Assembly (NCBI GenBank): GCA_964531675.1
Contig: CAZHFW010000007.1
Location: 6,754-70,753 of the forward strand
Source of the DNA: an uncultured Phycisphaeraceae bacterium
GTDB taxonomy: Bacteria > Planctomycetota > Phycisphaerae > Phycisphaerales > UBA1924
Length of the DNA: 64,000 bases
Direction: 5' to 3'
Both the position numbers and the translations under genes were made by a program. The notes under the pieces were generated by a model, which saw nothing but the letters and a program-made list of their open reading frames with translations, had not been told where the DNA came from and searched no databases. This document shows positions 39,763 to 64,000 of the stretch, piece after piece; positions within the stretch are counted from its first letter, which is position 1, and each line of letters opens with the position of its first letter.

Positions 39763-40053
39763 ATGTCGAGTCTTTCGCCGATCGGGTCGAGCCAGGCTGA
39801 ACGCATCCGCGCCGCGCAGGAAGCGGCCAAGCGGACGTCGACCCCCGCGGGCCGGGCTGCGGAGGCGGCCAGTCGTGGATCGGACCAGGTTGAACTTTCC
39901 CCGATGGCGGGGTTCATGTCCAAGCTTCGCGACCTGCCGGTGAGGCAGGAGCTGGTGGACCGCGTCCGCGACGAGATCGATCGCGGCGTGTACGAGTCGG
40001 CCGAGAAGCTCAATGCTGCGGTCGACGAGATGATCGGGGATGCGCAAGGCTGA
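39763..40053 (+). CDS. flgM: Anti-sigma-28 factor FlgM
   Basis: 96 aa. The N-terminus is disordered and Ala/Ser-rich, and the C-terminus reads VELSPMAGFM..LPVRQELVDRVRDEIDRGVYESAEKLNAAVDEMI, the FlgM signature. Confidence 0.7.
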   Translation: MSSLSPIGSSQAERIRAAQEAAKRTSTPAGRAAEAASRGSDQVELSPMAGFMSKLRDLPVRQELVDRVRDEIDRGVYESAEKLNAAVDEMIGDAQG

Positions 40054-40196
40054 TCCCCGGGGCGGATTGCCCCCCATGTTCCGGGCCTGGAGCCCGGGCT
40101 TGACGACGCCGGAACCGGTACGCTGAAGACGTTGTTGGCCCGGGGCTTGCTGGATTCTCTGGCGGCTCTTGGTGGTCCTGTCTTCACGGAGCGGTG

Positions 40197-43100
40197 ATGG
40201 CGGTGTACGGCGGCTATGAGACGGTGCGAGAGCTGAATCGCACCGGACTTGGATCGGTCTGGCTGGCCAGGCCGGCCTCGTCGTCGGCTGCGCCGGGCGA
40301 GCCATCGCACGTCATCAAGGTTCGCGGCGATCTGGGGGAGCTGATCGGGAGCGACCGATCCGCGCGGGCCCAGGCGCAGTTCCTGGAGTCGGCCCAGATC
40401 CTGAGGGAGGCCAAGCCCGCACCGGGCGGCGCGCGGGCGCTGCTGATGGTCCAGGCGCTGGGACGCGCGGGCGCCGAGGCGTACGTCGTTTCCGAATACC
40501 ACCCGCGCACGCTCGCGAGTATCGCGGGTCGGGTGCGGGCGGATGGTCATGTCATGCGGCACGTGGCGCAGGCGTGCGCCACAGCGCTGCGCCAGCTGCT
40601 GGCGGCTGGCCGCGTGCACGGAAACCTGAAGGCCTCCAACGTGCTCTTCACGGGGACGGGCGAGCTTGCCGAAGCGATCGTGCGGCTGGACGATCCCGCG
40701 CCGATCGCGGGCGGCGGACCTCAGGAGGTCCAGGCCGAGCTGATGCAGATCGCCAGGTTGCTGGTGCTGCTGGCGACCGGGAAGCCTTACGACGATCTGC
40801 GCGGCTGGCCGATCCAGACTTCACCCGAATGGCAGAAGCTTGGCGAGGATGAGACGGTCTGGCGCAGGCTCTGCCATGACATTCTGAATCCCACGCCCGA
40901 GGCGCGGCCGAGCCTGGAGCAGTTCGAGGCACGCATCGCCGAGGGCGAAGCGGGTGTGCTGGCCAATCAGGAGGCGATGCAGGCGGCCGGGGGCATGGCG
41001 GGCGTCGGCTTCGAGGTCGCGCCGGAAGCTCCCAAGAAATCCAAGAAGCCCTGGTACATCGGCGGCGCGGTGGCGGCGGCGCTGGTGGGCTACGGCGTGT
41101 ACAGCACGGTGTTTGCGCCCAAGGTCGACACCGGGCCTCGCCAGGGCATCACGGTCACGCGCGAGGACAACACGCCCACCCTGGCGCCGGAACTCATGCC
41201 CGCGGCGGGCGACGATCCGCGCCTGGCTTGGACCGCGGAAGCGGCGCTGGGACAGCTCAAGACAGATCTGGAGTCGCTGGCCAATCCGGGCTCGGCGGAG
41301 CGTGCGCCCGAACTGGCGGATCAACGAGAGAAACTCCTCGCGGACGTGGCTGCGATGCTTGCTTCGCGGGGCGAGATCGAGGGCGAGCTCACCAAGCTCA
41401 AGGACGTCAAGTGGATCGTGCGCGACGCTGATGAAGTGCGCACGCGGAAAGACGGGATCGATCAGCGCCTGGCAGAGATCACGCAGAAGCTCGCGGACGT
41501 GCGGACCAGGTCCAAGGACTACGAGGATGCGCTCCGGCTGGAGGTCCGCAAGACCGACAGCCTCGACGGGTTCCAGGAGTACGTGCGTTCGCGCAAGAAC
41601 GCGGGCGGCGGCTTTGGCCCGAGCGTGAAGCCCTACTTCGGCGAGGCGTGCGACGAGCTGATCGCCATGCAAGGCGACCTCAACCAGCTCAACGACCTCT
41701 TCAAGAAGGTCACCAAGGGGCTCCAGGGTCTGGAGGACCAGATCACCGCCCAGCGGCCCAAGGGCACCAGGCCTCTGGACAAGGCGCTGGCGGCCAAGCT
41801 CGAACTCATCGCGCGAGATGCGCTGCACGAACTCAAGCCTCTCCGCGACGGCAAGTGGCTCGGCGAGGACGAGGCGTTCCGCAAGGACTGGGACCAGAGG
41901 CTCGGTGCGTTCGCGGCGGCCAGCACGGAACTCATCGCGGTCGCGGAGCAGTCCGCGGTCCTGTTGAAGAGGCTCAACGAAGGCTGGATGCTCGCGGAGG
42001 ACGCGGGTGACGGCGCGATCGGGACAGCGTGGGAGCGCATCGAGAAGTCTCCTGCGGCGGTGGAGTTCACCGAAGGCGAGCTCAAGCCTCATGGGGGCGA
42101 CGTCCTGGCGGTGAAGAAGCGTGTCGACGCGCTGCGCCAGCTTGCGGCAGCGACCGATGCGGATGTGCTGGACACCGCGATGACCGGGGCGGAGATCTCC
42201 GTGGGCGAGATCCGCACAGCGTGGGCGAGGCTCGGCGAGATTGCCTCTCCCGCGGGAGCAGCGGGTGTGGAGCGGCACATCAGGCTCGCGGAGCGCACGA
42301 CGCAGCTGATCGCCAGCAACGCCACGCCTTCGAAGCGTGAGCCCTGGAGCGGCGCGGTCGCGACGGAGCTTCGGGCCAGGTGGGCGCTGGCGATGACGCG
42401 GGTGTCGGAGCGCGAGCCGGTGGCGGCGGTGCTGGCGCTCAAGGACGCGGCGGGCGCGGATGACACGACGATCGCGGGGCTTCCTGGGTTTGTGCGGTAC
42501 AACATCGCGCTCTCGAGCCTCGACTCGGCGCGGGCCAAGCTCGTCAAGGGCGGGCAGTCGCGACAGCTGAAGAAGGCGACGCAGAAGTTCGCGGACGCAG
42601 CGGCGGGATTGGGCGCGGACATCGCGGGCCGTCCGGAGGTCGCCAAGGTGCTCTCGGGCATCGGATCGGCGATGGCGCAGAAGTCGAGCATCACCGAGGA
42701 TGACCTGAAGGACATGGGCCCGGGGGTGCGCGGCTGGACCGTGACGATCGCGGGCGAAGAGGCCGAGAAGGTGCTGTATACGCAGCCCATCGGACGCAAC
42801 GCCCAGGTGCTCGAGTTCCGCCAGCTCAAGAACGAGGATGCGGGCTGGGTCGCGTACGTGCAAGTGAACGAGCTCACGGTGGCGCAGTACAACGCGATCA
42901 CGCAGGGCGACAAGTGGCCCGAGGTGCGGGCGCTGCTTCCGGAGAATCCGCTCAGGCTTGGCGGCGGGCCGGCGACGTGGACGACGCGGCGCGGGCCGCG
43001 TGGCGGCGTTTCGCCTTCGCAGCAATATCTGGCGGCCAACCCGCAGATGCAGCCCGCGGAGCCTTATCCGAAGGATCTGCAGGTCGGGACGCCTGGGAAT

Positions 43101-43763
43101 GACTCCCCGATTCAGCAGCTCTCGCCCGATTCGGCGTTGATCGCGGCGCGGCTGGTGGCGTGCCGGTTCCCGACCGAGGACGAGTGGCTCGCGGCTCTGG
43201 CGTTCGAGGGCGGTGTTGACGAAGCACGGAAGGACGCGAACCTGCGCGATCTGACGTGGAAGAAGCAGTGGGCGTACATCGCGTCCGACCAGGTGCCTCA
43301 GTCGGGCAAGGCTGCGGCGTGGCCTGATCGCGGCGCGTTCTTCTCGCCCGACGGCGGGACCAGGCTCCGGGATCAGGACGCCAAGCCCGCGGTGGAAACC
43401 GACGACGGCGTGCTTTGGTTCCGGTCGTCGAAGGTGGGAGCGGGGCGTGAGTTCCGCAACCTGATCGGCAACGTGGCGGAGTTCGTGACGACGGGCGCGG
43501 AGCCCTTTGACTCGCTCAAGGCCGAGCGGACGGTCGTGTATCAGGCGCTGGGGAACTACGAGCAGGTGCGCGTGATGGGCGGATCGGCGCTCTCGGATGC
43601 GGCGATGACGTTGAACAAGGCCTGGACAGTGGATCCCGAGGAAGCCAAGCGTGGGTACTCGGATGTCGGTGTGCGGCTGGCGTTTACCGCCGGGCCGGTG
43701 GGGCCTCCCTTTGCGTTGATTCTGGGTGAGGCGATCGGTGAGCCGGTGTATTTGAAGCGGTGA
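40197..43763 (+). CDS. Bitopic sensor: cytoplasmic Ser/Thr-kinase-like pseudokinase, single TM, long coiled-coil ectodomain and C-terminal FGE-sulfatase (TagR-like) domain
   Basis: Kinase fold: GLGSVWLA, VIKV, E in helix C. The catalytic loop is HGNLKASN (40617-40640) instead of HRDLKxxN, and LDDP replaces DFG. TM: WYIGGAVAAALVGYGVYSTVF (about aa 287-307). C-terminus: ARLVACRFPTEDEWLAA...GNVAEFV...RVMGGSALS...YSDVGVRLAF, the FGE-sulfatase signature. The ATG at 40197 is preferred to the GTG at 40194. Confidence 0.75.
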   Translation: MAVYGGYETVRELNRTGLGSVWLARPASSSAAPGEPSHVIKVRGDLGELIGSDRSARAQAQFLESAQILREAKPAPGGARALLMVQALGRAGAEAYVVSEYHPRTLASIAGRVRADGHVMRHVAQACATALRQLLAAGRVHGNLKASNVLFTGTGELAEAIVRLDDPAPIAGGGPQEVQAELMQIARLLVLLATGKPYDDLRGWPIQTSPEWQKLGEDETVWRRLCHDILNPTPEARPSLEQFEARIAEGEAGVLANQEAMQAAGGMAGVGFEVAPEAPKKSKKPWYIGGAVAAALVGYGVYSTVFAPKVDTGPRQGITVTREDNTPTLAPELMPAAGDDPRLAWTAEAALGQLKTDLESLANPGSAERAPELADQREKLLADVAAMLASRGEIEGELTKLKDVKWIVRDADEVRTRKDGIDQRLAEITQKLADVRTRSKDYEDALRLEVRKTDSLDGFQEYVRSRKNAGGGFGPSVKPYFGEACDELIAMQGDLNQLNDLFKKVTKGLQGLEDQITAQRPKGTRPLDKALAAKLELIARDALHELKPLRDGKWLGEDEAFRKDWDQRLGAFAAASTELIAVAEQSAVLLKRLNEGWMLAEDAGDGAIGTAWERIEKSPAAVEFTEGELKPHGGDVLAVKKRVDALRQLAAATDADVLDTAMTGAEISVGEIRTAWARLGEIASPAGAAGVERHIRLAERTTQLIASNATPSKREPWSGAVATELRARWALAMTRVSEREPVAAVLALKDAAGADDTTIAGLPGFVRYNIALSSLDSARAKLVKGGQSRQLKKATQKFADAAAGLGADIAGRPEVAKVLSGIGSAMAQKSSITEDDLKDMGPGVRGWTVTIAGEEAEKVLYTQPIGRNAQVLEFRQLKNEDAGWVAYVQVNELTVAQYNAITQGDKWPEVRALLPENPLRLGGGPATWTTRRGPRGGVSPSQQYLAANPQMQPAEPYPKDLQVGTPGNDSPIQQLSPDSALIAARLVACRFPTEDEWLAALAFEGGVDEARKDANLRDLTWKKQWAYIASDQVPQSGKAAAWPDRGAFFSPDGGTRLRDQDAKPAVETDDGVLWFRSSKVGAGREFRNLIGNVAEFVTTGAEPFDSLKAERTVVYQALGNYEQVRVMGGSALSDAAMTLNKAWTVDPEEAKRGYSDVGVRLAFTAGPVGPPFALILGEAIGEPVYLKR

Positions 43764-43845
43764 GGCGTTCCCCGGGGCGTACCCGGGGGCCGCGGGCGGC
43801 GGGGCAGATATGCTGGTGGTTTGAGGCGGAGAGCAGGAGCGGGAC

Positions 43846-44409
43846 ATGAGCCAGACCGGACAGAGCGGGCCCTTGCCGGAGAGCGTGGCGCAGGCTCTGC
43901 GCGCCAGGCTGCAGATCCCCGAAGGCCAGTCGATCGATCCGGCGCGGGCGGCGGAGCTTTTGGTGCCGCTGCTCGAGCTTGCGATCAGCATGGATCAGCT
44001 GGTGTGGAGGACGTGGTCGCAGCGGGTGGCGCCCGACTCGCAGGTCAAGCGTCGCGAGCTCTTGCAGAAGGCGGCGGCGGCTCACGTGACGGGTCAGGAG
44101 CTGGACCAGGAGAAGAGCCTGGCGCAGTTCACGCAGGACGCGGAAAGGCTCAGGCAGCTCACGCTGTGCCTGCTTTCGGCGATCGGCCAGACCGGAACGC
44201 TCTTTGCGCAGCGCTGGATGGACAAGTACAGCACCGAGTCGATCGAGCGGGCGGCGCAGTCGGAGAAGAAGCTGATCGAGGCGTTCGGCGCGACGTGCTG
44301 GCGCAAGTTCGGGGAGCTGACCGCGGGGATGGAGAAGTCGACGATCGACGCCGAGGTGAACCAGGGGATCGCGGAGTTTGTGGAACAGGTGATGAAGGCG
44401 GGGCGGTAG
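43846..44409 (+). CDS. Small all-helical cytoplasmic protein of unknown function, embedded in the TssLM-TPS operon
   Basis: AGGAG (43835-43839) lies 6 nt before the ATG. The 187-aa translation has no TM or signal. I recognise no family. Confidence 0.55.
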   Translation: MSQTGQSGPLPESVAQALRARLQIPEGQSIDPARAAELLVPLLELAISMDQLVWRTWSQRVAPDSQVKRRELLQKAAAAHVTGQELDQEKSLAQFTQDAERLRQLTLCLLSAIGQTGTLFAQRWMDKYSTESIERAAQSEKKLIEAFGATCWRKFGELTAGMEKSTIDAEVNQGIAEFVEQVMKAGR

Positions 44410-44466
44410 CGCCGGACGGGTATCGGGTGTGAAGACCGTGGAGCGAGGGACAAGGAAGCCGAGAGC

Positions 44467-45240
44467 ATGACGCTGATCGAACTTTGCGAACCGCTGATGC
44501 AGTTCATGTGCCGGGTGAACCGGTCGGCCCACAAGGGGCTGCCGATGGATCCTGCGCAGGTGCGGGCGGACGTGCGCCAGATGCTGCAGGAGATCGCGAC
44601 CAAGGCGCAGCGGGCGGGGATGAGCGAGAACTTCGAGAAGTCTCGCAAGGCGATCCACACGTTCATCGATGCGACGGTGATCGGTGTGGGGGGGCTGCTT
44701 GGCCAGCAGTGGAAGGCGATGAGGCTCGAGCCCGAGGGGGCGCTTCAGGACTTCTTCGCGCAGGTCGAGGCGGCCCTGGGCGATCCGACCGACGAGGCGA
44801 CGGACAGGCTGGCGGTGTATTACCACTGCATCGGCCTGGGCATGGCGGGCGCGACGACGGAGGACACCGAGTCGCTCCGGCGGATGATGGCCAAGATGCA
44901 GGCCAGGCTGCGCGGGCGGATGGATGTTGATCCGTCGGCGCGGATCTGTCCCGAGGCGTACGAGTGTCTGAACACCGCGAACCTGATCGAGCCGCCGGCG
45001 CGTTCGCTGGCCCCGATGGCGATCGCGCTGGTGGGGACGGTGGTGGTGCTCGCGGTGGCCAATGTGCTGTTCTTCCGCCATTCGTCGGCGGATCTGTCGA
45101 CGGCGCTGAAGGACATCGCGGGGACGACCTCGGTGCAGACGACCGGGCAGTCCGGGGCGGCCAAGGCCGAGCCGAACGCGGGGAAGCCCGCGGAACAGAA
45201 GAACGCGGAAGCGAACAAGCAGGCCGAGCAGGGCAAGTAA
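44467..45240 (+). CDS. tssL: DotU/TssL-family inner-membrane protein
   Basis: The layout is typical of DotU: a cytoplasmic helical domain (LIELCEPLMQFMCRV...KAIHTFIDATV...FFAQVEAALGDP...RLAVYYHCIGLGMAG...LRRMMAKMQARL) and then one TM (MAIALVGTVVVLAVANVLFF). There is no OmpA/peptidoglycan-binding extension. Confidence 0.75.
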   Translation: MTLIELCEPLMQFMCRVNRSAHKGLPMDPAQVRADVRQMLQEIATKAQRAGMSENFEKSRKAIHTFIDATVIGVGGLLGQQWKAMRLEPEGALQDFFAQVEAALGDPTDEATDRLAVYYHCIGLGMAGATTEDTESLRRMMAKMQARLRGRMDVDPSARICPEAYECLNTANLIEPPARSLAPMAIALVGTVVVLAVANVLFFRHSSADLSTALKDIAGTTSVQTTGQSGAAKAEPNAGKPAEQKNAEANKQAEQGK

Positions 45241-45247
45241 CCGGAGC

Positions 45248-49624: not shown

Positions 49625-49667
49625 GGCGCGACGAGGACCTGACACGCGAGCGGAAACAGCAGGACGC

Positions 49668-53248: not shown

Positions 53249-53396
53249 TGATGCACGATCCGGACAACTCCCGCGGGTTTGAGGCGGCTCTTCCGAGCGG
53301 CCTGAACGCATTTTCCGTGACTTTCGTGCGGTTGTATGGCACACTGCTGGGGACGGTCCTCGCGGGTGAACCCCTCACGCCCGGAGGAGCAGGCAC

Positions 53397-56300: not shown

Positions 56301-59300
56301 GGCTCGACGGCGGCGAACCAGCTCCGGCTGATCTCCGACGTGTCGATGCTGCAGACCACGCCGATCGTCGCCGGCGTGCTCGAACTCACCGGCGCGGGCA
56401 GCGCGACGCTCATCAATCCCGCCAATGACGTCGCGACCTTCGCGGCCAATCTGTCGGGCGGTTCCAGCACGCTGGCGTACGCCGACACGAACAACTTCTC
56501 GATCGGCGTGGGGCCCACGGTGTCGGGCATCACGCTCCCGACCGGATCGGGCAACATCCTGCTCATCGGCTCGGCGGGCACCACCACGCAGACGGCGCCC
56601 ATCGTCAGCGGCCCGTTCGTCATGGTGGGCGGCGGCTCGCTCGTCCTCGACACGCAGAACAACTCGGTCAGCTCGCTCGCAATCGGCATGACAGGCGCCA
56701 ACAGCTCCGTGTCGTTCCGTCAGGACTCGGGCATCTCGATCGACTCGGCGCTGGGCATCTTCGGCGCTTCGACCTTCACCGGTGCGAACAACACGCTCAC
56801 GTTCCGCTCCGACGGCGTGATCACCCAGTCACAGCCCGTGGTTACGACGGGGCTGAGGCTTCTCGGTGCTGGTCTTGCGAACCTGACGAGCGGCGGCAAT
56901 CGCATCACGACCCTGGCGGCGTCCATGACCGGCGCGACCTCCGCGCTGGCCTACTCGCAGGTCAATCCGATCGTCATTGGAGCCGTGGGCGGCACGTCGG
57001 GCGTCAACATCGGGACGGGCGCCGGAAACCTGTTCCTCTTGACGTCGAGCGGCGCGATCACGCAGACCCAGCCCGTCGTCGCGGGGGCGATCACGCTCAG
57101 CGGCTCGGGCTCGGCGACGCTCACGAATGCCGGGAACACCTTCTCGGGTCTGACGTTCGCTTCGCTGGGCGGGCCCTCGACGATCTTCACGAATCCCGCG
57201 TCCGGCCAGCTGCTCGTGAACACGAGCTCGGTGGGCGGCACCGCGTCGATTACTTCGGCGGGCGATCTGCGCGTCGGCGGAGTCTTCACGACCGGCACGA
57301 GCCTCTCGCTTCAGGCGGGAAGCGATGGTTCGGGAAATCTGACCTTTGCGGCGGGCTCGGGCTTGCGGGCCGACACGATCGCCCTCCGCGCGGGTGATGG
57401 GCCGGGCGGCGCATCGGCTGCGACGATTGACGCTGGTACCAACGCGCCCACGATCGCCAATGGCGCGGGTACCGCCAATCCGACTTCGCTTTCGCTGCGG
57501 GCCGATGGCGCGATCGACAGCGCCCAGATCCCGGCGGCGGCCCAGTTCAACGCTGGGAACACGACCGGGCTGACCTACACGATCCTCTCGGATCAGGGCG
57601 CGGTGACCGTCGCGGACGGGACCAAGCTGGCGGCGGCGGTGCTCTCGATCAACGGCAGCGCGGTCAACATCTCCGACAATGTCAGCGTCCGGTCCTTCAC
57701 GACCTCGTCGCCTGTCGTGCTCTCGGGGAACACCGAGCTGGCTTCGACGCAGGCGAACCTCACGCTCGGCTCGACGCTCGCGATCGGCTCGGGGAACGTC
57801 ACGCTCACGTCGGATGAAGTCGACCTGGGTGGGAACGTCTCGGGCGCCGGAAGCCTCACGATCAGGCCCTTCACGTCCAGCGTGGGCGTGGCCCTGGGCG
57901 GGACCGAGACGCCGGGAAGGCTGGACCTGACCGCGGCCGAGCTCGCGAGGCTCCAGGCGGGTCTGGCGGCGCTCACGCTCGGCAACTCTAGCGGCACCGG
58001 CACGCTCTTGACGCTCTCCGACACGAGCTTCAAGGCGCCGACCACGTTCCGCGGGCCGGGCGGCATCACGCTCTCGGCCAATGTCCGGAGCCAGGGGTTC
58101 AAGCTCACCTTCGCCAATCCCGTCAGGCTGACGATCGACACGCAGGTCGCCAGCAACGACAACGGCGTGCTGACCGGCGCGGACATCGAGTTCCTGGACA
58201 CCATCGACGCGCAGGCTGCGGGCGTGCAGGCCCTGGCGATCTTCCCGGGCAGCACGGGCGTGGCCAGACTCGGCGGTCCGGCGTTCGACAAGCCCGTGGG
58301 CGGGCTCGCGGCGATCAAGTCGATGAGCATCTCGGGCGGCGGCCTGGCGATCGGCGCGGTCAGCTCGACGGGCTTCCAGGATTACATCGGCCCCGCGGAT
58401 GTCCGCGGCAATCTGACGTCGCAGTTCTCGTCCATTCGTCTGGCTTCCCCGGTGACGACGACCGGCAGCCGGATTTTCTCGGCGGCGACCACGTACGCCC
58501 ATCAGAGCGGGCTCACCGCGGGTGGAAATCTCTCGATCAGCGCGGGTTCTGACGCGACCTTCGGTGGCACCACCGCGGTGACTGGCTCGCTCTCGGCGAT
58601 CGTGACGGGAAACCTGACCGCGACCGGCGCGACCACGTCTACCGGCACGATGAGCCTGACCTCGGGAGGCAACATCGCGGTCACGAGCCTGGGCGCGGGT
58701 TCTTCGCTCGGCGTCACGAGCGTCGGGAGCACGACCGCGACAGGCAACGCGACCTCGACCGGAACGATCAACATCAATGCGGGGACGACCCTCGCGATGG
58801 CGGGCGTCAACGCGGGCACCGGGTTGACGGCCCAGGCGACGGGGAGCGCGACGTTCTCGGGGCCGGTGGCTGCGGGAACGTTCGGAAACATCGATGCTGC
58901 GTCGATCCTGGCTTCGGGCACGGTTTCCTCGGGCACGACGCTCTCGCTCTCGGGCGACACGACGGTTCAGGTCAACCAAGGCGTGACCACCGGCGGCACG
59001 ACGAGCATCACCGCTCCGACGTCGGCGACCTTCGCGGCGATCAACTCGGGCGGTAGCCTGACGTTCAACTCGGGCGTGACGAGTGTGTCCGGCGCGATCC
59101 AGTCGACCGGGCCGATCCAGTTCACCGTCAGCTCCCTCTCGACCGCGGGAATCACCGGACAGTCCTCGCTGGTTGCGAATGCAACCGGACCGATCACCAT
59201 CGGCGGCAACACGACGCTCACCGGCACCGGCGCGTTGACCGCGGGCAGCACGATCACGCTCGCGGGATTCGCGGCTGGGCCTGGCCTCACGATGGCGGCG

Positions 59301-62300
59301 CCGGGTCTGGTGCGCTTCAACGGCGCGGTCAGCTCCACCGGGGCGCTGGGGGCCAATGTCGGGAGCCTGGTGGCCAACTCGACGATCGGCTCGGGCACGA
59401 CCCTCGGCATCACCTCCGCTGGTGCGGTCGATCTGAACGGCGCGGTCAACGCGGGGTCGACGTTGAACATCTCCGGGACGTCGATCGACGCTGCGGGGAC
59501 GCTGAGCTCGGTGGGGTCCACGACGCTCGATTCTTCGGGTCGGATGTCGCTGGCGGCCATCAACGCCGGGGCGGCCACGAGTTTGACGGCGGTCGGGCCG
59601 ATTTCCTATACGTCGCTGACCTCGGGAGGAAATCTCGCGGCGTCCGGGGCGGGCATCATCGGGACGCTCACGACCAACGTCACGGGCGCCGCGACGATGA
59701 ACTCCACCGCGGCCCTGTCGCTTGGTGGGGCGTTCTCTTCGACCGGCCTCGCGAGCCTCACGTCGGGCACGAATATGTCCTTGGCTTCGGTGACCTCCGG
59801 AGGCACCACGGGGCTCAGCGCTGGCGGCACGCTCTCGTACGCCTCCGTTCAGTCCGCGGGGAATCTGAACGCGACGGGCGTCGGAATCACCGGGACCTCG
59901 ACGACCAATGTCACGGGCGGCTCCGCGACGATCCACTCGACCGCGGGTCTGACCCTCGGCGGCGGACTCTCGGCCTCCACCGGCGCAACCCTGACCTCCA
60001 CCGGCGCGATGACGCTGACCTCGGTGAACTCGGGCGGAGCAACAGGCCTCACCGCGGGCGGCACGCTGTCGTATACCTCGCTGATCTCGGGAGGCAATCT
60101 CAACGCCTCCGGCGCGGGGATCACGGGGACGTCCACGACCAACGTCACCGCCGGTTCGGCGACGATGAACTCGTCCGCTGGGCTCACGCTGGGCGGCGCG
60201 CTCACGACCACGGGCACGACGAGCCTGACTTCCGCCGGTCCGATGTCGCTGGCCTCGGTGAACTCGGGCGGCGCAACGGGGCTTGCCGCGGGCGGAGCGT
60301 TGTCGTACACGTCGCTCACCTCGGGCGGCAATCTCAACGCGTCGGGCGCGGGGATCACGGGAACGGGCGCAACCAACCTCACCGGGAGCGCGACGTACAA
60401 CTCGGGCGCAGCCCTGTCGCTTGCGGGAGATCTCGCGGCCTCGGGCCCGGTGTCTCTCACGAGCACGCTCGGCGCCACGCTCGCGGGCGTCTCCGCTGGG
60501 TCCGGCTTCAACGCCACGACCGGCGGCTTCTCGGCGGGCGCGATCACGACGACAGGCCCTGCGACGATCGACTCGGGAGCGGGCGTGACGTTGACCGGCA
60601 CGCTCTCTGCGGGAGGGGCCGTCACGATTGCAAGTGATGGATCGTCCTCGCTGCGTGCGATCACCACGCCCTCGTCGATCGCGCTCAACTCGGGGAACGA
60701 TCTGACGCTGCTGGGCGCGCTCAACTCGGGCTCGACGATCAGCGCGCTGGCCAATGGCGCGGTCGCGATCGGCGCATCGGCCAAGGCGCCGACCTCGATC
60801 AGCTTCCGATCCGGGGAAGACGGCACCGGAGATCTGACCTTCACCGCGGGCGGCCTCACCATCGATACGCCCACGCTCACGCTCCGCGCGGGCGATGGCC
60901 CGGGGGGCGTGAAGACCGCGTTCGTGAACGCGCTGGCGGGCTCGCCCTCGTTCCGTGGATTCGCGGGTGCGGGGACTTCGCCCACGTCGTTCACGCACCA
61001 GCAGGACGCCTCCATCGTCGATGCGCAGACCGCAGCGGGATCGCAGTTCGCGGGCGGATTGGGCTCGGTGCAGTACCGGCTCATCTCCGATGATGGCTCG
61101 ATCACGATCGCCGACCCGTCAAAGTTCCTGGGCACGGACCTGACGGTCCGCAGCGCTGCCGGATTCTCCGCGGTGCCCTTCGCGCCCGCCAAGCTCACGA
61201 TCGAGGGCCCGCTCTCCTCGGGCAACCAGACGATCGACATCGGTGCGGGAACGCTGACGCTTTCAGACGCCCTGACGCTTGGCGCCTCGGATCTGACGAT
61301 CTACGCCGACGAGATCAACATCCTCGCGCCCATCTCGGGATCGGGAACGCTGACCCTCGGGCCCGGGACGCTGGCACGCCCGGTGCTGCTCGCGGGCGCG
61401 ACCGACTCGGGCTCGGGACGCCTGGACCTCACCGCGGGCGAACTCGACTTCCTGCTCGACGGATTCGCTGCCATCGTCGTCGGTCGTTCCAACTCGACCG
61501 GCACGCTCGGCTTTGCAGCTCCCCGTACCTTCAGCGATCCGATGGTCTTCCGAGCTGCGGGCGTGATCACCGCGGACCGGGCGCTGACCGGCATTGGCGA
61601 CGGCGCGTTCCGGTTCGAGTCGACCCAGCCCGTCCGACTCGGCACGACGATCACCACGCAAGGTCAGGACGTCGCGTTCGCGGCCCCCGTCCGGCTGACG
61701 GGTGATACGTCCCTGAGCGTCAATGGCGGCGATGTCGGGTTCGACCAGGCCCTCGATGCGGTCTCCGACGGCGTCGGCAACCTGCAGATCTCCACCGGCA
61801 GCGGCCAGACCGCGTTCCTCGCCCCCGTCGGTTCGACCTTCCGCCCGAACTCCATCAATGTGCCGGGCGAGGTCAACGCCGGCTCGATGCGGGTGGTGGA
61901 TGGTCTGACGCTCGGCGATCTCTCGCTCAACGCCAATGCGGTGTACGCGGGACGCACGCTCACGTTTGCCTCGGTGCGGGCGCCGGGTTCGTCGTCTTCC
62001 TTCCGCGCCACGCCGACGGGCGCCGGCGCGAGCGTGAACTTCCCGGGCGGCATCGGCGCGCCGGGCCAGACGCCCACGTCCATCACGGTCGACGCCGGCG
62101 GCACCGCCCAGCTCTTTGGCGCGATCCGCGCGGGCGGTCCGGTGCTCTTCTCAAGCCCCGCAAACTTCCACGATGGCACGTCCATCGACGCGAGCAACGC
62201 TGCGGTGACGTTCGCGCAGGCGCTGACCGGCGAAGGAAACCTCACGGTCAACGCGGGAACCGGCCCGACGAACTTCCAGGGCGTCACGACGACCAACCCC

Positions 62301-64000
62301 AACGGTGCGTCGCTCACGCTACTCTCGGCGGGCCTGACGACCTTCAACGCGCCCACGAGTCTGGCTTCGGGTGTCTTCGCGGCGGGTCCGGTGCGGATCG
62401 CGGGCAACATGACGATCACCGGGGCCGATGCGCCCACGACCTTCAACAACTCGGTCGAGCTGGCGGGCGTCGGGCTTGAGTCCGCTGGCGATATCACGCT
62501 CGGCTTCTCCAGCGTCCACACGCTCAATCCCTCCGGCGATTCGACGGTCCGCAGCACGGGCGGAAATGTGCGCGTCCCGGCCCTCATCGACGGGCCCGGA
62601 GCGCTCACGCTCAAGGCCAACCTCGGCGCGGTCACGCTCGAGCAGGCGCTCGGATCAAACGTCGCGCCGGCATCGCTGAACGTCTCCGCGAGCCAGATCG
62701 CGATGCAGGGTGCTCGCACCGTGGGGTTCATGCTCATCCAGGGGCCCACGACCCTCAACGGCAATCTGACCACCTCGGGCGCGCCGATCACGATCAACCA
62801 GCCCGTCATTCTGGCGACGGACGTCACCATCGATTCCACCGCGGGCGGGGCTGCCTCGGGCGCGAGCATCACGATCGCGGGCAGTGTCGATTCCGACGCG
62901 GTCGCGCCGCGTGGACTCTCGGTGGTCGCGGGATCGGGCGTTGGCGATCTGCAGCAGGGCGTGGGCCAGGGCCGGGCGCTTTCGGGTCTCACGGTGGCCG
63001 CGAGTTCCTACGACCTCCCGGCGGTACGCACGACCGGGCCGCAGTCCCACCTGGGCGTCAAGAGGCTCCACGGCGATCTGTCGGTCATCAACGCGGGTTC
63101 GATCACGCTCGGCGACACGACGACCCTGGTCTCGAACGTCGCGTTGATCACGCCTGGAGCCGCGACGGATCTGGTGCGGGTCACCGGCACGCTGGACGAT
63201 TCCGCGGTCGGCGTCCATACGTTGAGCGTGAACGCCGGGGCGAGCCAGGCGCTGTTCGAGGGCAACGTCGGCACGATCACCGCGCCGCGCAACGTGTCCG
63301 TGGTCGCGGGCGTCACGCAGTTCAATAAGCTCACGCAGACCGATTCGTTCAACATCACGGGCCCGGTGTCGATCCTGGATGACATGACGAGTCTGGCCGG
63401 GGACATGACCTTCGGCGCCCCGGTCACGATCGCCAGGGATCTGACGCTCAAGGCTCAGAACATCACCTTCAACGACATCGTGAGCGGCGATTCGGGCCCG
63501 ATTCTGCACGACGTCGTGCTGGATGCGCCGGGTCTCACGAGCCTCAACGCGGACTTCGGCGCGCTGCGCCCCTTCCAGAGTGTCCGCATGATCGGCGGCG
63601 GCTCGACCCGGATCGCGGGATCACGCGTCACCGCGGTCGGCGAGCAGACGTACGACGAGCCTGTGGTCCTGGCGGCCGACACGCACATCGCGGGGTCTTC
63701 GCTGCGGTTCAACAGCACCATCGACTCCGATGGCACGCCCCGGAGTCTGAATCTGGACACGGATCAGGCCGGAACCGCGACGCTCGGCGGCAACATCGGG
63801 AGCATTTCCAAACTCGCGTCGCTCCGGATCGGGGCCGCGCCGCTCTCGGCGCCCGGCCGCTTCACGAGCCTGGGCAATCCGCTGGAGAACAACGCGGGGA
63901 CCATCCTCGGCGGCAATGTGTCGACCACCGGGGACATCACCATCGGCGGGCCGCTCACGCTGACGAGCGACGCGGTGGTGCGTTCGGACAATGGCGATGT
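53397..64000 (+). CDS. Giant TpsA exoprotein (filamentous-haemagglutinin-like beta-helix), more than 3,534 aa, 3' end outside the window
   Basis: It is not in the ORF track because the frame has no stop inside the window. The GTG at 53397 is preceded by GGAGGAG (53383-53389), and an in-frame TGA lies at 53367. Extended signal: KPASSKLFRKK...LLAAIGRPALA. TPS domain: GSLTTITASDNAIINYKSFDIRSGEAVRFVQPSSRSRVLNRI...IDGSLSSNGIVYLLNPSGVLFG. This is followed by GGKVEVLGSTVKLEGANIDVSGRDGGGSVRVGGDLQG...GDGGSVVLWSD...GGDGGFAEISSK...GTLLLDPTNVQI. I hand-translated the frame at about 53.4-54.9, 55.5, 59.6-60.4 and 63.96 kb, and it was open each time. Confidence 0.85.
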   Translation, partial: MKPASSKLFRKKPHGSERASDRAPVRVRRASELVAAAGLLAAIGRPALAGPEGAQVSHGSASFARSGSLTTITASDNAIINYKSFDIRSGEAVRFVQPSSRSRVLNRIESPVPTRIDGSLSSNGIVYLLNPSGVLFGNGAKIDVAGITAAAARMSDSDFIKGFDRFTDVSGAVINQGSIKSGSTVNLIGNYVANSGTIEAKDAVVMAVGDEVLVAENPLSGTYVRVSAKPPAEEAGPRTDKPAGKPRPSLAAGDLFSLAISQTGTVKSAHVRAESARAGRVQIAGKIDASSATGKGGKVEVLGSTVKLEGANIDVSGRDGGGSVRVGGDLQGKGELRHAGVTTADAATSIKADATARGDGGSVVLWSDQLTSSRATISAQGGSQGGDGGFAEISSKSTLDFSVGPADLRAARGRQGTLLLDPTNVQIIDGVAGSGDQDNVLFVNSGFLSAGAADTAFNTVSWGQIASLSGPTSNIIIQATNQITFGNITGATPGVTSADGTAAVGRLTGQTLRFEAQGGSISFADSSDRVLVTGGGTLELIAGTSISAARLESTTGTIKLTSGTTMSLRSMVADSIVLSAGNSTPGSAVSQAAPFSTTNLTLLGSADYQFGAQANNLVTLAGSFTGTGAQVSIQDLSGFSVGTVGAVSGLSIGTAATNRFLLQTDGAVTQTDPIVAGQFRVLGNGSVSFTSAGNDFGTIAGLLTGASSSIFIRDDNGLVVGNAGGIPGVGIGTLAANILSIQSDGPITQTHALVCGSLRFTGAGSATFGTLNNETVTLAAKLTGPSSSLTFRDDNGFAVGTISGTAGVDVGTGASNTLSIQSNSGVTQSQPIIAGNLRLLGSGAFSLLGQSNNTDVLAASLTGTSTVLEFRDDTGFSIGSVLGTNGVSVASDPSNRISFQSGSLVSQTQPLSASSLRMLGTGSYDFSNAGNALSVIAGSLSSPTSFITVRSTGGITVGTVSTTSGVNIGSTAANQLRLISDVSMLQTTPIVAGVLELTGAGSATLINPANDVATFAANLSGGSSTLAYADTNNFSIGVGPTVSGITLPTGSGNILLIGSAGTTTQTAPIVSGPFVMVGGGSLVLDTQNNSVSSLAIGMTGANSSVSFRQDSGISIDSALGIFGASTFTGANNTLTFRSDGVITQSQPVVTTGLRLLGAGLANLTSGGNRITTLAASMTGATSALAYSQVNPIVIGAVGGTSGVNIGTGAGNLFLLTSSGAITQTQPVVAGAITLSGSGSATLTNAGNTFSGLTFASLGGPSTIFTNPASGQLLVNTSSVGGTASITSAGDLRVGGVFTTGTSLSLQAGSDGSGNLTFAAGSGLRADTIALRAGDGPGGASAATIDAGTNAPTIANGAGTANPTSLSLRADGAIDSAQIPAAAQFNAGNTTGLTYTILSDQGAVTVADGTKLAAAVLSINGSAVNISDNVSVRSFTTSSPVVLSGNTELASTQANLTLGSTLAIGSGNVTLTSDEVDLGGNVSGAGSLTIRPFTSSVGVALGGTETPGRLDLTAAELARLQAGLAALTLGNSSGTGTLLTLSDTSFKAPTTFRGPGGITLSANVRSQGFKLTFANPVRLTIDTQVASNDNGVLTGADIEFLDTIDAQAAGVQALAIFPGSTGVARLGGPAFDKPVGGLAAIKSMSISGGGLAIGAVSSTGFQDYIGPADVRGNLTSQFSSIRLASPVTTTGSRIFSAATTYAHQSGLTAGGNLSISAGSDATFGGTTAVTGSLSAIVTGNLTATGATTSTGTMSLTSGGNIAVTSLGAGSSLGVTSVGSTTATGNATSTGTININAGTTLAMAGVNAGTGLTAQATGSATFSGPVAAGTFGNIDAASILASGTVSSGTTLSLSGDTTVQVNQGVTTGGTTSITAPTSATFAAINSGGSLTFNSGVTSVSGAIQSTGPIQFTVSSLSTAGITGQSSLVANATGPITIGGNTTLTGTGALTAGSTITLAGFAAGPGLTMAAPGLVRFNGAVSSTGALGANVGSLVANSTIGSGTTLGITSAGAVDLNGAVNAGSTLNISGTSIDAAGTLSSVGSTTLDSSGRMSLAAINAGAATSLTAVGPISYTSLTSGGNLAASGAGIIGTLTTNVTGAATMNSTAALSLGGAFSSTGLASLTSGTNMSLASVTSGGTTGLSAGGTLSYASVQSAGNLNATGVGITGTSTTNVTGGSATIHSTAGLTLGGGLSASTGATLTSTGAMTLTSVNSGGATGLTAGGTLSYTSLISGGNLNASGAGITGTSTTNVTAGSATMNSSAGLTLGGALTTTGTTSLTSAGPMSLASVNSGGATGLAAGGALSYTSLTSGGNLNASGAGITGTGATNLTGSATYNSGAALSLAGDLAASGPVSLTSTLGATLAGVSAGSGFNATTGGFSAGAITTTGPATIDSGAGVTLTGTLSAGGAVTIASDGSSSLRAITTPSSIALNSGNDLTLLGALNSGSTISALANGAVAIGASAKAPTSISFRSGEDGTGDLTFTAGGLTIDTPTLTLRAGDGPGGVKTAFVNALAGSPSFRGFAGAGTSPTSFTHQQDASIVDAQTAAGSQFAGGLGSVQYRLISDDGSITIADPSKFLGTDLTVRSAAGFSAVPFAPAKLTIEGPLSSGNQTIDIGAGTLTLSDALTLGASDLTIYADEINILAPISGSGTLTLGPGTLARPVLLAGATDSGSGRLDLTAGELDFLLDGFAAIVVGRSNSTGTLGFAAPRTFSDPMVFRAAGVITADRALTGIGDGAFRFESTQPVRLGTTITTQGQDVAFAAPVRLTGDTSLSVNGGDVGFDQALDAVSDGVGNLQISTGSGQTAFLAPVGSTFRPNSINVPGEVNAGSMRVVDGLTLGDLSLNANAVYAGRTLTFASVRAPGSSSSFRATPTGAGASVNFPGGIGAPGQTPTSITVDAGGTAQLFGAIRAGGPVLFSSPANFHDGTSIDASNAAVTFAQALTGEGNLTVNAGTGPTNFQGVTTTNPNGASLTLLSAGLTTFNAPTSLASGVFAAGPVRIAGNMTITGADAPTTFNNSVELAGVGLESAGDITLGFSSVHTLNPSGDSTVRSTGGNVRVPALIDGPGALTLKANLGAVTLEQALGSNVAPASLNVSASQIAMQGARTVGFMLIQGPTTLNGNLTTSGAPITINQPVILATDVTIDSTAGGAASGASITIAGSVDSDAVAPRGLSVVAGSGVGDLQQGVGQGRALSGLTVAASSYDLPAVRTTGPQSHLGVKRLHGDLSVINAGSITLGDTTTLVSNVALITPGAATDLVRVTGTLDDSAVGVHTLSVNAGASQALFEGNVGTITAPRNVSVVAGVTQFNKLTQTDSFNITGPVSILDDMTSLAGDMTFGAPVTIARDLTLKAQNITFNDIVSGDSGPILHDVVLDAPGLTSLNADFGALRPFQSVRMIGGGSTRIAGSRVTAVGEQTYDEPVVLAADTHIAGSSLRFNSTIDSDGTPRSLNLDTDQAGTATLGGNIGSISKLASLRIGAAPLSAPGRFTSLGNPLENNAGTILGGNVSTTGDITIGGPLTLTSDAVVRSDNGD
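55200..57200 (+). repeat. About 8 degenerate tandem 79-aa (237-bp) beta-helix units inside tpsA
   Basis: The motif [FL]-x-[FI]-R-D-D-x-G-[FL]-x-[VI]-G recurs in frame at 55530, 55767 and 56004 (spacing 237 bp). It continues in degenerate form (FRQDSG, AYADTNN, AYSQVNP). Boundaries are approximate. Confidence 0.6.
59604..60440 (+). repeat. About 3.6 tandem, closely similar 77-78-aa (231-234-bp) repeats inside tpsA
   Basis: Units start with S-Y-[TA]-S-[LV]-x-S-[GA]-G-N-L-[AN]-A-[ST]-G-x-G-I at 59604, 59835, 60069 and 60303, all in frame. The DNA similarity is obvious by eye. Confidence 0.7.

What the first reader, a model, noticed from the sequence alone, without database searches (positions are those of the whole stretch)
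40197..64000. Orphan TssL-TssM-TagF membrane module, headed by a PpkA/TagR-like sensor, in one gene block with a two-partner secretion system
SEEN: seven co-directional genes with short junctions. The gaps are 82, 57, 7 and 43 nt, then a 4-nt ATGA overlap, then 148 nt. In order the genes are:
1. pseudokinase-TM-FGE domain protein
2. a 187-aa helical protein
3. DotU/TssL
4. IcmF/TssM with intact Walker A and B
5. a TagF-like protein
6. TpsB
7. a TpsA of more than 3,534 aa.
No sheath (TssB/C), Hcp, VgrG, baseplate (TssE/F/G/K), TssA, ClpV or TssJ-like translation is recognisable anywhere in the 64 kb. The left flank is flgM, a SPOR-like gene and the Maf-like gene.
ESTABLISHED: IcmF/DotU pairs are known as the inner-membrane core of T6SS and as accessory stabilisers of Legionella-type T4BSS. 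TagF, PpkA and TagR (a periplasmic FGE-sulfatase-fold protein) are post-translational T6SS regulators. Type Vb (TPS) secretion is regarded as needing only Sec plus TpsB, with no inner-membrane or nucleotide-dependent partner.
INFERENCE: this may be a third use of the IcmF/DotU module. It could act as an envelope-spanning, possibly NTP-dependent scaffold or gate coupled to TpsB for exporting an unusually large beta-helical exoprotein, with TagF as a brake and the pseudokinase-TagR fusion as a periplasmic sensor. I am not aware of a described system with this architecture.
Basis: partly seen in the sequence, partly recalled or inferred. Interest (0 to 1): 0.9.

Follow-up and report, generated by a model that had tools for sequence, protein, structure and literature searches.

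The report
Reduced T6SS membrane module fused to TPS
The seven genes are real and form a gene block conserved across Phycisphaerae bacteria, but the block is a trimmed version of the membrane half of a type VI secretion system joined to a giant-adhesin export system, not a stand-alone invention, and whether the two work together is still untested.

Summary
Seven co-directional genes sit at the stated coordinates and junctions:
- a pseudokinase-TM-FGE protein
- a 187-aa helical protein
- DotU/TssL
- a TssM-like NTPase
- a TagF-like protein
- TpsB
- a TpsA of more than 3,534 aa (4,068 aa on an identical contig).

No T6SS tail gene lies in the 64 kb.

The block is conserved across the class Phycisphaerae. 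DotU-TssM-TagF is universal, and TpsB directly follows TagF in 32 of 45 loci with enough flank.

The "orphan" reading is weakened:
- Most relatives carry TssK (48 of 69). They also carry a small lipoprotein and a 620-660-aa unknown gene, in the canonical order tssJ-tssK-tssL-tssM-tagF.
- One Phycisphaerae genome has this same module next to a complete tssA-B-C-hcp-tagJ-E-F-G-clpV set.

The module therefore descends from a real T6SS membrane complex. The window lineage is a reduced form. TssK, the lipoprotein, the unknown gene and the N-domain of the helical protein were lost together. This loss happened repeatedly, under continued purifying selection, and TpsBA was kept in 11 of 12 TssK-less loci.

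Coupling to TPS is plausible (about 0.3-0.4) but unproven. A split T6SS with tail genes elsewhere is the main rival. I found no published description.

The parts
40194..43763 (+). Gene A: membrane sensor of 1,189 aa. Kinase-like N-domain with dead catalytic motifs (HGN instead of HRD, no DFG), one hydrophobic segment near residues 295-317, a long helical periplasmic region, and a C-terminal FGE-sulfatase-like domain (residues 968-1163).
   Evidence: Pfam FGE-sulfatase 24.6 bits. The orthologue profile hits StkP at 2.3e-7 and FGE at 1.5e-6. Sequence and family consensus. An A homologue lies upstream of the module in 45 of 57 relatives.
43846..44409 (+). Gene B: 187-aa helical cytoplasmic protein. 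It equals the C-terminal domain of the roughly 310-aa protein X of relatives. The N-domain of X is missing here.
   Evidence: Alignment A6. No Pfam or PDB match. The X N-domain is present in 48 of 49 TssK+ loci and in only 2 of 23 TssK-less loci. X lies beside TssK in the complete T6SS of L089.
44467..45240 (+). Gene C: DotU/TssL. Cytoplasmic domain, one TM (residues 185-203), and a short low-complexity tail with no OmpA/peptidoglycan-binding domain.
   Evidence: PF09850 58.3 bits. TIGR03349 38 bits, below cut-off. TM prediction. Present in 69 of 69 relatives.
45248..49624 (+). Gene D: TssM-like protein of 1,458 aa. TM hairpin (18-36, 48-66), cytoplasmic GTPase-like P-loop domain (G1 GEPGSGKS, G3 DTAG, G4 TKCD), TM3 (447-465), and a roughly 990-aa family-specific periplasmic region (long helical part plus a C-terminal beta-sandwich).
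   Evidence: PF14331 200.7 bits and TIGR03348 over residues 48-490 only. 31-35% identity to annotated TssM over the cytoplasmic domain. Topology. Motifs intact in 81 of 81. AF2 models with pLDDT 89.8 and 90.1 have no PDB match with E below 0.001. hhalign to a canonical TssM covers the cytoplasmic part only.
49668..50879 (+). Gene E: TagF-like protein of 403 aa, with an N-terminal FGKHPxWDDH motif and a C-terminal TM anchor (365-383). In many relatives it is fused to a roughly 1,100-aa periplasmic region ending in an FGE-like domain.
   Evidence: TIGR03373 E=0.006. TagF family hit by 14 of 25 orthologues (NCBIfam) and 15 of 25 (Pfam), all sub-threshold. TM. Fused forms. Present in 65 of 65 relatives.
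50876..53248 (+). Gene F: TpsB (Omp85/ShlB-family outer-membrane transporter) of 790 aa. Signal peptide and long low-complexity Q/E/P-rich linkers. Its start overlaps the TagF stop (ATGA).
   Evidence: PF03865 29.9 bits. Sequence. Orthologues lie directly after TagF in relatives. dN/dS 0.07-0.16.
53397..64000 (+). Gene G: TpsA giant exoprotein. TPS secretion domain at residues 73-272, then beta-helical repeats. Cut by the window end; 4,068 aa on an identical contig.
   Evidence: PF05860 86 bits and TIGR01901 65.8 bits. Full length. Relatives are 3,807-5,605 aa.

Best explanation
The block is a lineage-reduced copy of a class-wide Phycisphaerae operon. That operon descends from the membrane-complex and regulatory half of a type VI secretion system (the tssJ-tssK-tssL-tssM-tagF part) and has become fused, in the order Phycisphaerales, to a two-partner secretion pair.

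Shown:
- Orthology of TssL, of the TssM N-terminal part, and (weakly) of TagF to T6SS proteins.
- The full ancestral block: Y, lipoprotein Z, A, X, TssK, TssL, TssM, TagF(-FGE), TpsB, TpsA.
- Physical linkage of this same module to a complete T6SS tail set in one genome.
- Loss in the window lineage of TssK, Y, Z and the N-domain of X.
- Purifying selection and intact NTPase motifs in the genes that remain.

Inferred mechanism:
- The parts that dock a contractile tail have gone, while TssL, TssM, membrane-anchored TagF, the pseudokinase/FGE sensor and protein B persist immediately upstream of tpsB-tpsA, with tagF and tpsB overlapping.
- I therefore think the retained proteins form a TssK-independent complex that is anchored in the inner membrane, reaches across the periplasm and depends on NTP.
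- It is probably co-expressed with the TpsB/TpsA system and acts with it. It could be a scaffold, gate or anchor for export or display of the 4,000-aa beta-helical exoprotein.
- TagF would act as a cytoplasmic brake. The periplasmic FGE-like domain of A would be the signal input.

Confidence that the block is a T6SS-derived membrane module is about 0.85. Confidence in the TPS-coupled, tail-independent mechanism is about 0.35-0.4.
For: Identity:
- Domain hits.

Conservation:
- 482 species genomes encode a relative.
- Among the 80 best loci: DotU 69 of 69, TagF 65 of 65, X/B 65 of 69, A 45 of 57, TssK 48 of 69, TpsB 32 of 45.
- TpsB is always the next gene after TagF, with gaps up to about 500 nt and often overlapping.

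T6SS descent:
- TssK (PF05936) lies between X and DotU in relatives.
- The order matches the Rhizobium order tagH-tssJ-tssK-tssL-tssM-tagF.
- L008/L089 has TssA-B-C-Hcp-TagJ-E-F-G-ClpV divergent from lipoprotein-X-TssK-TssL-TssM-TagF. Its TssM is nested inside the family tree and its GC content is uniform.

Reduction with retention:
- The window and its 87%-identical relative lack TssK, Y and Z. The next clade, at 44% identity, has the full block.
- TssK-less loci are scattered in the tree; Fitch parsimony gives at least 7 changes on a rough NJ tree.
- X N-domain, Y and TssK are lost together.
- 11 of 12 TssK-less loci with enough flank keep TpsBA.
- dN/dS is 0.04-0.32 for TssM, DotU, TagF, TpsB, B and A in TssK-less pairs. 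NTPase motifs are intact in 81 of 81.
- No terminator-like site lies between the genes.
Against: - 13 of 45 loci, including all examined Tepidisphaerales and Sedimentisphaerales, keep the module with no tpsBA within 10 kb. The module therefore works without an adjacent TPS there.
- L013 lacks both TssK and tpsBA.
- Every characterised TPS system needs only Sec and TpsB (established knowledge), so no precedent exists for an inner-membrane partner.
- The rest of the window genome and the DNA downstream of tpsA could not be read. TssK and tail genes may simply lie elsewhere.
- P. mikurensis (L057) lacks an adjacent TssK but keeps a full-length X, which hints at relocation rather than loss.
- Adjacency and co-transcription do not prove physical coupling.
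- The NJ tree behind the count of independent losses is rough.
Confidence: 0.38

Rival explanations
1. Split but functional T6SS. The block encodes the membrane complex and post-translational regulators of a contractile T6SS. The tail, baseplate and (in this lineage) tssK genes lie at another locus. TpsB/TpsA is a co-regulated but mechanistically independent contact-dependent adhesin or toxin system in the same operon.
For: - The same module sits beside a complete tail and baseplate set in L089.
- TssK has no known role outside the T6SS baseplate, yet is well conserved (43-75% identity) in 48 of 69 relatives.
- The gene order is canonical.
- TagF plus PpkA/TagR-like regulators are typical of T6SS control (established knowledge).
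- A stand-alone tssA-B-C-hcp-tagJ-E-F-G-clpV block exists in an unidentified high-GC organism, with TssC 75% identical to the Phycisphaerae one. This shows that such split layouts occur.
- About 9% of T6SS-i are multi-locus (PMC4793230).
Against: - 79 of 80 loci have no tail gene within 10 kb.
- For the window lineage this reading needs relocation of tssK. On a rough tree it needs such relocations several times independently.
- Y, Z and the X N-domain vanish together with TssK, which looks like loss of a functional sub-module rather than a move.
- I found no report of T6SS in Phycisphaerae. A freshwater Planctomycetes survey reports T6SS only for Planctomycetacia (PMC6461901).
Confidence: 0.32
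2. A TssK-independent envelope function unrelated to TPS. The retained TssL-TssM-TagF-A-B set would act as an envelope-spanning signalling or tethering complex. tpsBA would merely share the transcription unit.
For: - The module persists without nearby tpsBA in 13 of 45 loci and in L013 without either TssK or tpsBA.
- Two paralogous periplasmic FGE-like sensor proteins (A and the TagF-FGE fusions) point to signal transduction.
- Purifying selection acts on the genes.
Against: - The strict tagF-to-tpsB adjacency, with overlapping or very short junctions, across distant Phycisphaerales.
- 11 of 12 TssK-less loci keep tpsBA.
- No positive evidence points to any specific alternative function.
Confidence: 0.18
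3. Accessory IcmF/DotU pair of a Legionella-type T4BSS, or a decaying non-functional remnant.
For: IcmF/DotU pairs also occur in T4BSS (established knowledge). There is a weak NF038226 hit (E=1.4e-7).
Against: - The IcmF_IVB score is 29.8 bits against a cut-off of 1000, while TssM scores 274.7.
- No Dot/Icm gene lies in the window.
- dN/dS of 0.04-0.32, intact reading frames and intact NTPase motifs argue against decay.
Confidence: 0.03

Closest known systems
T6SS-i membrane complex with its post-translational regulators (TssJ-TssL-TssM plus TagF, PpkA, TagR), as in Pseudomonas aeruginosa H1-T6SS, Agrobacterium and Rhizobium clusters
   Same: - DotU/TssL with one TM.
- TssM topology: TM hairpin, P-loop NTPase, third TM, then a large periplasmic part.
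- A tagF-like gene directly after tssM.
- A kinase-like transmembrane protein and an FGE-fold periplasmic domain.
- In relatives, the order lipoprotein ... tssK-tssL-tssM-tagF is identical to the Rhizobium cluster.
- One relative has the full tail set.
   Different: - The TssM periplasmic region (about 990 aa) has no detectable ImcF-related or IcmF_C domain by sequence or fold.
- There is no TssJ (PF12790). Relatives use unrelated lipoproteins.
- The kinase is catalytically dead and fused to the FGE domain.
- TagF is membrane-anchored or fused to a periplasmic FGE region.
- There are extra family-specific proteins X/B and Y.
- In the window there is no TssK and no tail gene within 64 kb.
- tpsBA sits in the operon.
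Two-partner secretion (type Vb): FhaB/FhaC, ShlA/ShlB, CdiA/CdiB
   Same: - tpsB followed by tpsA.
- TPS domain at the TpsA N-terminus.
- ShlB/Omp85-type transporter.
- A giant beta-helical passenger.
   Different: - tpsB is translationally overlapped with a tagF-like gene and lies in one block with tssL and tssM. That linkage is conserved in about 70% of related loci.
- TpsB carries long low-complexity linkers.
- TpsA is very large (3,800-5,600 aa).
- No known TPS system has an inner-membrane NTPase partner.
Legionella-type T4BSS IcmF/DotU (IcmH) accessory pair
   Same: An IcmF-family NTPase next to a DotU-family protein, used outside a contractile machine.
   Different: - The match to the T4BSS IcmF model is negligible (29.8 bits against a cut-off of 1000).
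- There are no Dot/Icm genes.
- The family groups with TssM and is linked to TssK and, in one genome, to a T6SS tail.
Non-canonical T6SS membrane complexes: Acinetobacter (title of PMC10564176, seen) and Bacteroidota T6SS-iii without TssJLM (PMC4793230)
   Same: They show that the membrane-complex half of T6SS is the evolutionarily flexible part and can lack TssJ or be replaced.
   Different: Those systems keep the tail in the same locus and have no TPS partner. Here the tail genes are not linked in 79 of 80 loci.

Membership tests
T6SS membrane complex (TssL/TssM/TssJ) | TssL: DotU cytoplasmic domain plus a single C-terminal TM | tested here: met
   PF09850 58.3 bits against a cut-off of 27. 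TM at residues 185-203. TIGR03349 is below cut-off at 38 against 89.95.
T6SS membrane complex (TssL/TssM/TssJ) | TssM N-terminal part: two TMs, IcmF-related P-loop NTPase with Walker A/B, and a third TM | tested here: met
   PF14331 200.7 bits. TMs at 18-36, 48-66 and 447-465. GEPGSGKS, DTAG and TKCD motifs present. 31-35% identity to annotated TssM.
T6SS membrane complex (TssL/TssM/TssJ) | TssM periplasmic ImcF-related (PF06761) and IcmF_C (PF06744) domains | tested here: not met
   No Pfam hit. TIGR03348 aligns only model positions 35-475 of 1168 and scores 274.7, below the 388 cut-off. hhalign to Rhizobium TssM covers the cytoplasmic part only. Foldseek on two high-confidence AF2 models finds no TssM chain and nothing with E below 0.001.
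T6SS membrane complex (TssL/TssM/TssJ) | TssJ outer-membrane lipoprotein (PF12790) | tested here: not met
   None in the window. Relatives carry a 175-aa lipoprotein Z in a comparable position, but it has no Pfam or PDB match, and hhalign to TssJ gives a probability of 0.7%.
Complete T6SS-i | Presence of TssA, B, C, Hcp, E, F, G, K, VgrG and ClpV in the same genome | not testable with these tools
   Absent from the 64-kb window. TssK is present in 48 of 69 related loci. The full set is present in one related genome. The rest of the window genome and the DNA downstream of tpsA could not be reached.
TagF (TIGR03373 / PF09867) | TagF N-terminal domain | tested here: inconclusive
   Window protein: 16.8 bits against a cut-off of 41.2, and Pfam E=0.26. 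Among 25 orthologues, 14 (NCBIfam) and 15 (Pfam) hit TagF as the only recurrent family, with best E about 1e-4, all sub-threshold. The position after tssM is as in canonical clusters. hhalign to a single Rhizobium TagF gives 1%.
PpkA-type Hanks kinase | Kinase fold with catalytic HRD and DFG motifs | tested here: not met
   The fold-level match is met: the profile hits StkP at 2.3e-7. But the motifs are HGNLK in place of HRDLK and there is no DFG, in the window protein and in the family consensus. It is a pseudokinase.
TagR-like / FGE-sulfatase fold | FGE-sulfatase (PF03781) domain on the periplasmic side | tested here: met
   24.6 bits against a cut-off of 23.3 at residues 968-1163. The profile matches FGE structures at 1.5e-6. 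The periplasmic location is inferred from the single hydrophobic segment. Orthology to TagR itself was not tested.
Two-partner secretion (type Vb) | TpsA with an N-terminal TPS domain, and an adjacent TpsB of the ShlB/Omp85 family | tested here: met
   PF05860 86 bits and TIGR01901 65.8 bits. PF03865 29.9 bits against a cut-off of 22.7. POTRA domains were not detected by Pfam at E below 0.01.
T4BSS IcmF/DotU | Match to IcmF_IVB and presence of Dot/Icm genes | tested here: not met
   NF038226 29.8 bits against a cut-off of 1000. No Dot/Icm gene among the annotated window genes.

The most novel reading that the evidence does not exclude
In Phycisphaerales, the inner-membrane NTPase core of a type VI secretion system (TssL-TssM, with TagF and a pseudokinase/FGE sensor) has been exapted. 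After repeated loss of TssK and of the other tail-docking parts, it would serve as the inner-membrane and periplasm-spanning partner of a two-partner secretion system that exports 4,000-5,600-aa beta-helical fibres. That would be a hybrid of a T6SS membrane complex and a type Vb system working without a contractile tail.
Probability: 0.3. Interest if true: 0.85.

Novelty: new variant of a known kind. Interest (0 to 1): 0.62.

Why it matters
If the retained TssL-TssM-TagF set really works with TpsB/TpsA, it would be two firsts: the first type Vb system with an energised inner-membrane partner, and the first documented reuse of the T6SS membrane complex apart from a contractile tail.

Even on the conservative reading, the analysis defines an undescribed Phycisphaerae-type T6SS membrane module:
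- a TssM with a novel periplasmic region of about 990 aa
- new accessory proteins X and Y and a non-TssJ lipoprotein
- TagF and a dead kinase fused to FGE-like periplasmic sensors.

It also documents a natural series of stepwise reductions that can be used to dissect which parts depend on which. Phycisphaera mikurensis is cultured and carries the reduced block, so the question can be tested experimentally.

Tried and rejected
1. Reaching the DNA downstream of tpsA failed.
- Two homologue searches with TpsA segments did not return the full-length self protein.
- A protein-pattern scan and an exact 42-mer scan of metagenome contigs found nothing.
- The 10-kb flank limit stops inside tpsA in every locus.

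As a workaround I ran the Phycisphaerae TssC (P0245) against 1.84 billion representatives and read the contexts of the closest hits.
- L090 is a stand-alone tail block. Its taxon could not be established, because no member of its protein clusters carries an organism name.
- L091 and L093 are canonical clusters from unknown taxa.
- L092 carries fimbrial chaperone-usher and PTS genes and was read as a proteobacterial context.

3. Assigning X/B, Y and Z to known T6SS components failed with Pfam, PDB profile searches and hhalign.

4. Fold comparison of the TssM periplasmic region gave only weak helical-repeat or C2-like matches.

5. A pairwise-identity correlation between TpsB and TssM (rho 0.16) was too noisy to say anything about co-inheritance, and I discarded it.

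6. The T4BSS reading is rejected.

7. A link to planctomycetal crateriform structures (PMC5394234) was considered. It has no evidence here.
Full report
**1. Observation**

The window is high-GC (about 67%). Closest homologues and related genome records place it in the Phycisphaerales, phylum Planctomycetota.

Seven + strand ORFs lie at 40194-43763 (A), 43846-44409 (B), 44467-45240 (C), 45248-49624 (D), 49668-50879 (E), 50876-53248 (F) and 53397 to beyond 64000 (G). The junctions are 82, 57, 7 and 43 nt, then a 4-nt overlap, then 148 nt. JGI gene calls on identical metagenome contigs agree and show that G is 4,068 aa.

Family searches give:
- C: DotU, PF09850, 58 bits.
- D: IcmF-related_N, PF14331, 200 bits. 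The TssM equivalog model aligns only to residues 48-490.
- E: a sub-threshold TagF hit.
- A: FGE-sulfatase at the C-terminus.
- F: ShlB.
- G: the TPS domain.

Further checks on these assignments:
- A profile of 16 A orthologues matches Ser/Thr kinases at its N-terminus and FGE at its C-terminus. The catalytic HRD is HGN and DFG is absent, both in the window protein and in the family consensus. A is therefore a pseudokinase.
- D has the TssM topology (TMs at 18-36, 48-66 and 447-465) and GTPase-like motifs. Those motifs are intact in all 81 family members examined.
- E carries a C-terminal TM anchor.
- TagF_N/TIGR03373 is the only family hit recurrently by E orthologues (14-15 of 25, best E about 1e-4). 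The TagF assignment is a plausible remote homology, not a proven one.
- No T6SS tail or baseplate gene, and no TssK or TssJ, is detectable in the 64 kb.

**2. The block is conserved, and larger in relatives**

The TssM-like protein has more than 1,500 homologues of about 1,450-1,500 aa. Every listed one carries PF14331 alone, and the named ones are Phycisphaerae or Planctomycetota. Of 185,579 species-representative genomes, 482 encode a relative. I fetched the 80 best loci with 10-kb flanks.

tblastn and ORF mapping give these frequencies, counted over the loci with enough flank:

| Gene | Present |
|---|---|
| DotU | 69 of 69 |
| TagF-like | 65 of 65 |
| B homologue (X) | 65 of 69 |
| A homologue upstream | 45 of 57 |
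| TpsB downstream | 32 of 45 |

In every locus that has TpsB, it is the very next gene after TagF, often overlapping it, and TpsA follows.

Gene calls with precomputed Pfam hits show that most relatives carry more:
- TssK (PF05936, about 460 aa) lies between X and DotU, in 48 of 69 loci.
- X is about 310 aa. The window's B corresponds only to its C-terminal domain.
- TagF is often fused to a periplasmic region of about 1,100 aa, paralogous to A, that ends in an FGE-like domain.
- Upstream of A lie a 175-aa lipoprotein Z with an invariant lipobox Cys and a 620-660-aa cytoplasmic protein Y.

In L088 the gene before Y is an unrelated ABC transporter. The full block is therefore Y-Z-A-X-TssK-TssL-TssM-TagF(-FGE)-TpsB-TpsA. 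X, Y and Z match nothing in Pfam, in the PDB, or among canonical T6SS proteins by hhalign.

**3. The module is T6SS-derived**

A canonical Rhizobium cluster has the order tagH-tssJ-tssK-tssL-tssM-tagF. That is the order seen in Phycisphaerae.

I searched canonical T6SS proteins against all loci. Tail genes appeared in one locus only, L008. Pfam confirmed TssA, TssB, TssC and Hcp there.

Extending that contig (L089) shows TssA-TssB-TssC-Hcp-TagJ-TssE-TssF-TssG-ClpV. This set is transcribed divergently from an LPP20-type lipoprotein, X, TssK, DotU, the 1,432-aa TssM and TagF.

The L008 TssM is nested within the family tree, and GC content is uniform along the locus. So the Phycisphaerae-type X/TssK/TssL/TssM/TagF set is the membrane-proximal half of a genuine T6SS in at least one genome. 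The 'orphan, third use' framing cannot be taken at face value.

The periplasmic 990 aa of TssM is family-specific:
- There are no ImcF-related or IcmF_C domains.
- The high-confidence AF2 models (pLDDT 90) show a long helical region plus a C-terminal beta-sandwich.
- Those models have no significant PDB neighbour.

**4. The window lineage is a reduced form**

The window and its 87%-identical relative share the same reduced architecture and the same flanks. The next clade, at 44% identity, has the full block.

- TssK-less loci (23 of 72) are scattered over a rough NJ tree. Fitch parsimony needs at least 7 changes.
- Loss of TssK goes with loss of the X N-domain, which is present in 48 of 49 TssK+ loci and in 2 of 23 TssK-less loci.
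- It also goes with loss of Y, which is found only in TssK+ loci. A Z-like lipoprotein persists in some TssK-less loci (hhalign probability 79.5%).
- Eleven of the twelve TssK-less loci with enough downstream sequence keep TpsB-TpsA. L013, a Tepidisphaeraceae locus, is the exception.
- In TssK-less pairs, dN/dS is 0.04-0.32 for TssM, DotU, TagF, TpsB, B and A.

The pattern is a tail-docking sub-module (Y, Z, X N-domain, TssK) that is dispensable, and a second sub-module (A, B, TssL, TssM, TagF, TpsB, TpsA) that is maintained.

**5. Mechanism**

Shown: homology, topology, synteny, co-loss and selection. Everything below is inferred.

My preferred reading, at about 0.38, is this. In the window lineage TssL-TssM forms a TssK-independent, NTP-dependent complex that is anchored in the inner membrane and reaches across the periplasm. 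Membrane-anchored TagF and the pseudokinase/FGE sensor A control it. It acts together with the co-operonic TpsB/TpsA as a scaffold, gate or anchor for a 4,000-aa fibre.

The main rival, at about 0.32, is a split T6SS whose tail genes and tssK lie elsewhere, with TpsBA only co-regulated. In its favour:
- TssK is strongly conserved in most relatives.
- L089 has the complete system.
- P. mikurensis keeps a full-length X without an adjacent TssK.
- A stand-alone tail block exists in an unidentified organism whose TssC is 75% identical to the Phycisphaerae one.

A third reading, at about 0.18, is a tail-independent envelope or signalling function unrelated to TPS. It is supported by the 13 of 45 loci without tpsBA. 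T4BSS or decay readings are essentially excluded.

**6. Limits**

- I could not read the rest of the window genome.
- I could not read the DNA after tpsA.
- I could not establish the taxon of L090.
- The 80 loci are the best-scoring of 482, so the frequencies are biased toward relatives of the query.
- ORF starts in the maps are approximate.
- The tree is a simple NJ on 377 columns.

**7. Literature**

Full-text searches found no description of T6SS, or of a TssM-TPS linkage, in Phycisphaerae.
- A freshwater Planctomycetes survey reports T6SS only in Planctomycetacia (PMC6461901).
- Boedeker et al. note T6SS-related genes in Rhodopirellula baltica (PMC5394234).
- Abby et al. report that about 9% of T6SS-i are multi-locus (PMC4793230).

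**8. Verdict**

This is a real, conserved and undescribed variant of a known kind. It is a Phycisphaerae-type T6SS membrane and regulatory module fused to a TPS operon, present here in a reduced TssK-less form. Its interpretation is partly supported. Interest is 0.62.

Noticed in passing
window 31253-37832 (-) and 39763-40053 (+): A flagellin-glycosylation-type cluster lies on the left flank. It contains UDP-GlcNAc 2-epimerase, NeuB, a 253-aa gene and a 1,209-aa MptE-like/Maf protein, followed by a SPOR-like gene and an flgM-like gene just before gene A. The same flank is conserved in the 87%-identical relative.
   Followed up: partly
window 16155-18059 (-): An FHA-GAF-PP2C (SpoIIE) protein sits next to a TolC-like OEP gene and MacB-type ABC transporter genes. 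Its FHA domain is the only other window hit of any canonical T6SS protein (TagH). An FHA/PP2C pair is the usual counterpart of PpkA/TagF regulation, but this gene is 22 kb away and its linkage was not examined.
   Followed up: no
L088 518-2386 and 2469-2987; also L016 78-1652 and 1725-2264: Two conserved genes of unknown function head the full block in relatives. Y is about 620-660 aa and cytoplasmic. Z is a lipoprotein of about 175 aa with an invariant lipobox Cys. Neither matches Pfam, the PDB or canonical T6SS proteins. Y is found only in TssK+ loci, whereas Z persists in at least one TssK-less locus (L045) and a Z-like lipoprotein in six others.
   Followed up: partly
L089 1-19375 (same contig as L008): A Phycisphaerae MAG (GCA_041890195.1) carries a complete single-locus T6SS whose membrane half is the Phycisphaerae-type set (LPP20-like lipoprotein, X, TssK, DotU, 1,432-aa TssM, TagF). 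I found no published report of a T6SS in this class.
   Followed up: yes
L090 8017-18919: A stand-alone tssA-B-C-hcp-tagJ-E-F-G-clpV block lies on a 327-kb ENA contig (GC 0.68). Its TssC is 75% identical to the Phycisphaerae one. The block is heavily frameshifted, from long-read errors or decay, and has no tssK/L/M within 10 kb. The taxon could not be established.
   Followed up: partly
L083 19328-20262: An IS630-family transposase (HTH_Tnp_IS630 plus DDE_3) sits directly after the TagF-FGE gene, at the place where tpsB lies in other loci. This suggests that tpsBA was lost or displaced by insertion in that genome.
   Followed up: no
L013 1193-8663 and 9683-10426: This Tepidisphaeraceae locus lacks both TssK and tpsBA but keeps X (with its N-domain), DotU, TssM and TagF. 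A Ser/Thr-kinase-like stretch lies downstream of TagF. It is the one exception to 'TssK-less loci keep tpsBA'.
   Followed up: no
window 50876-53248: TpsB has unusually long low-complexity Q/E/P/K-rich linkers after the signal peptide and again around residues 290-370. These N-terminal regions are poorly conserved among orthologues, so they are unlikely to be a specific docking domain.
   Followed up: partly
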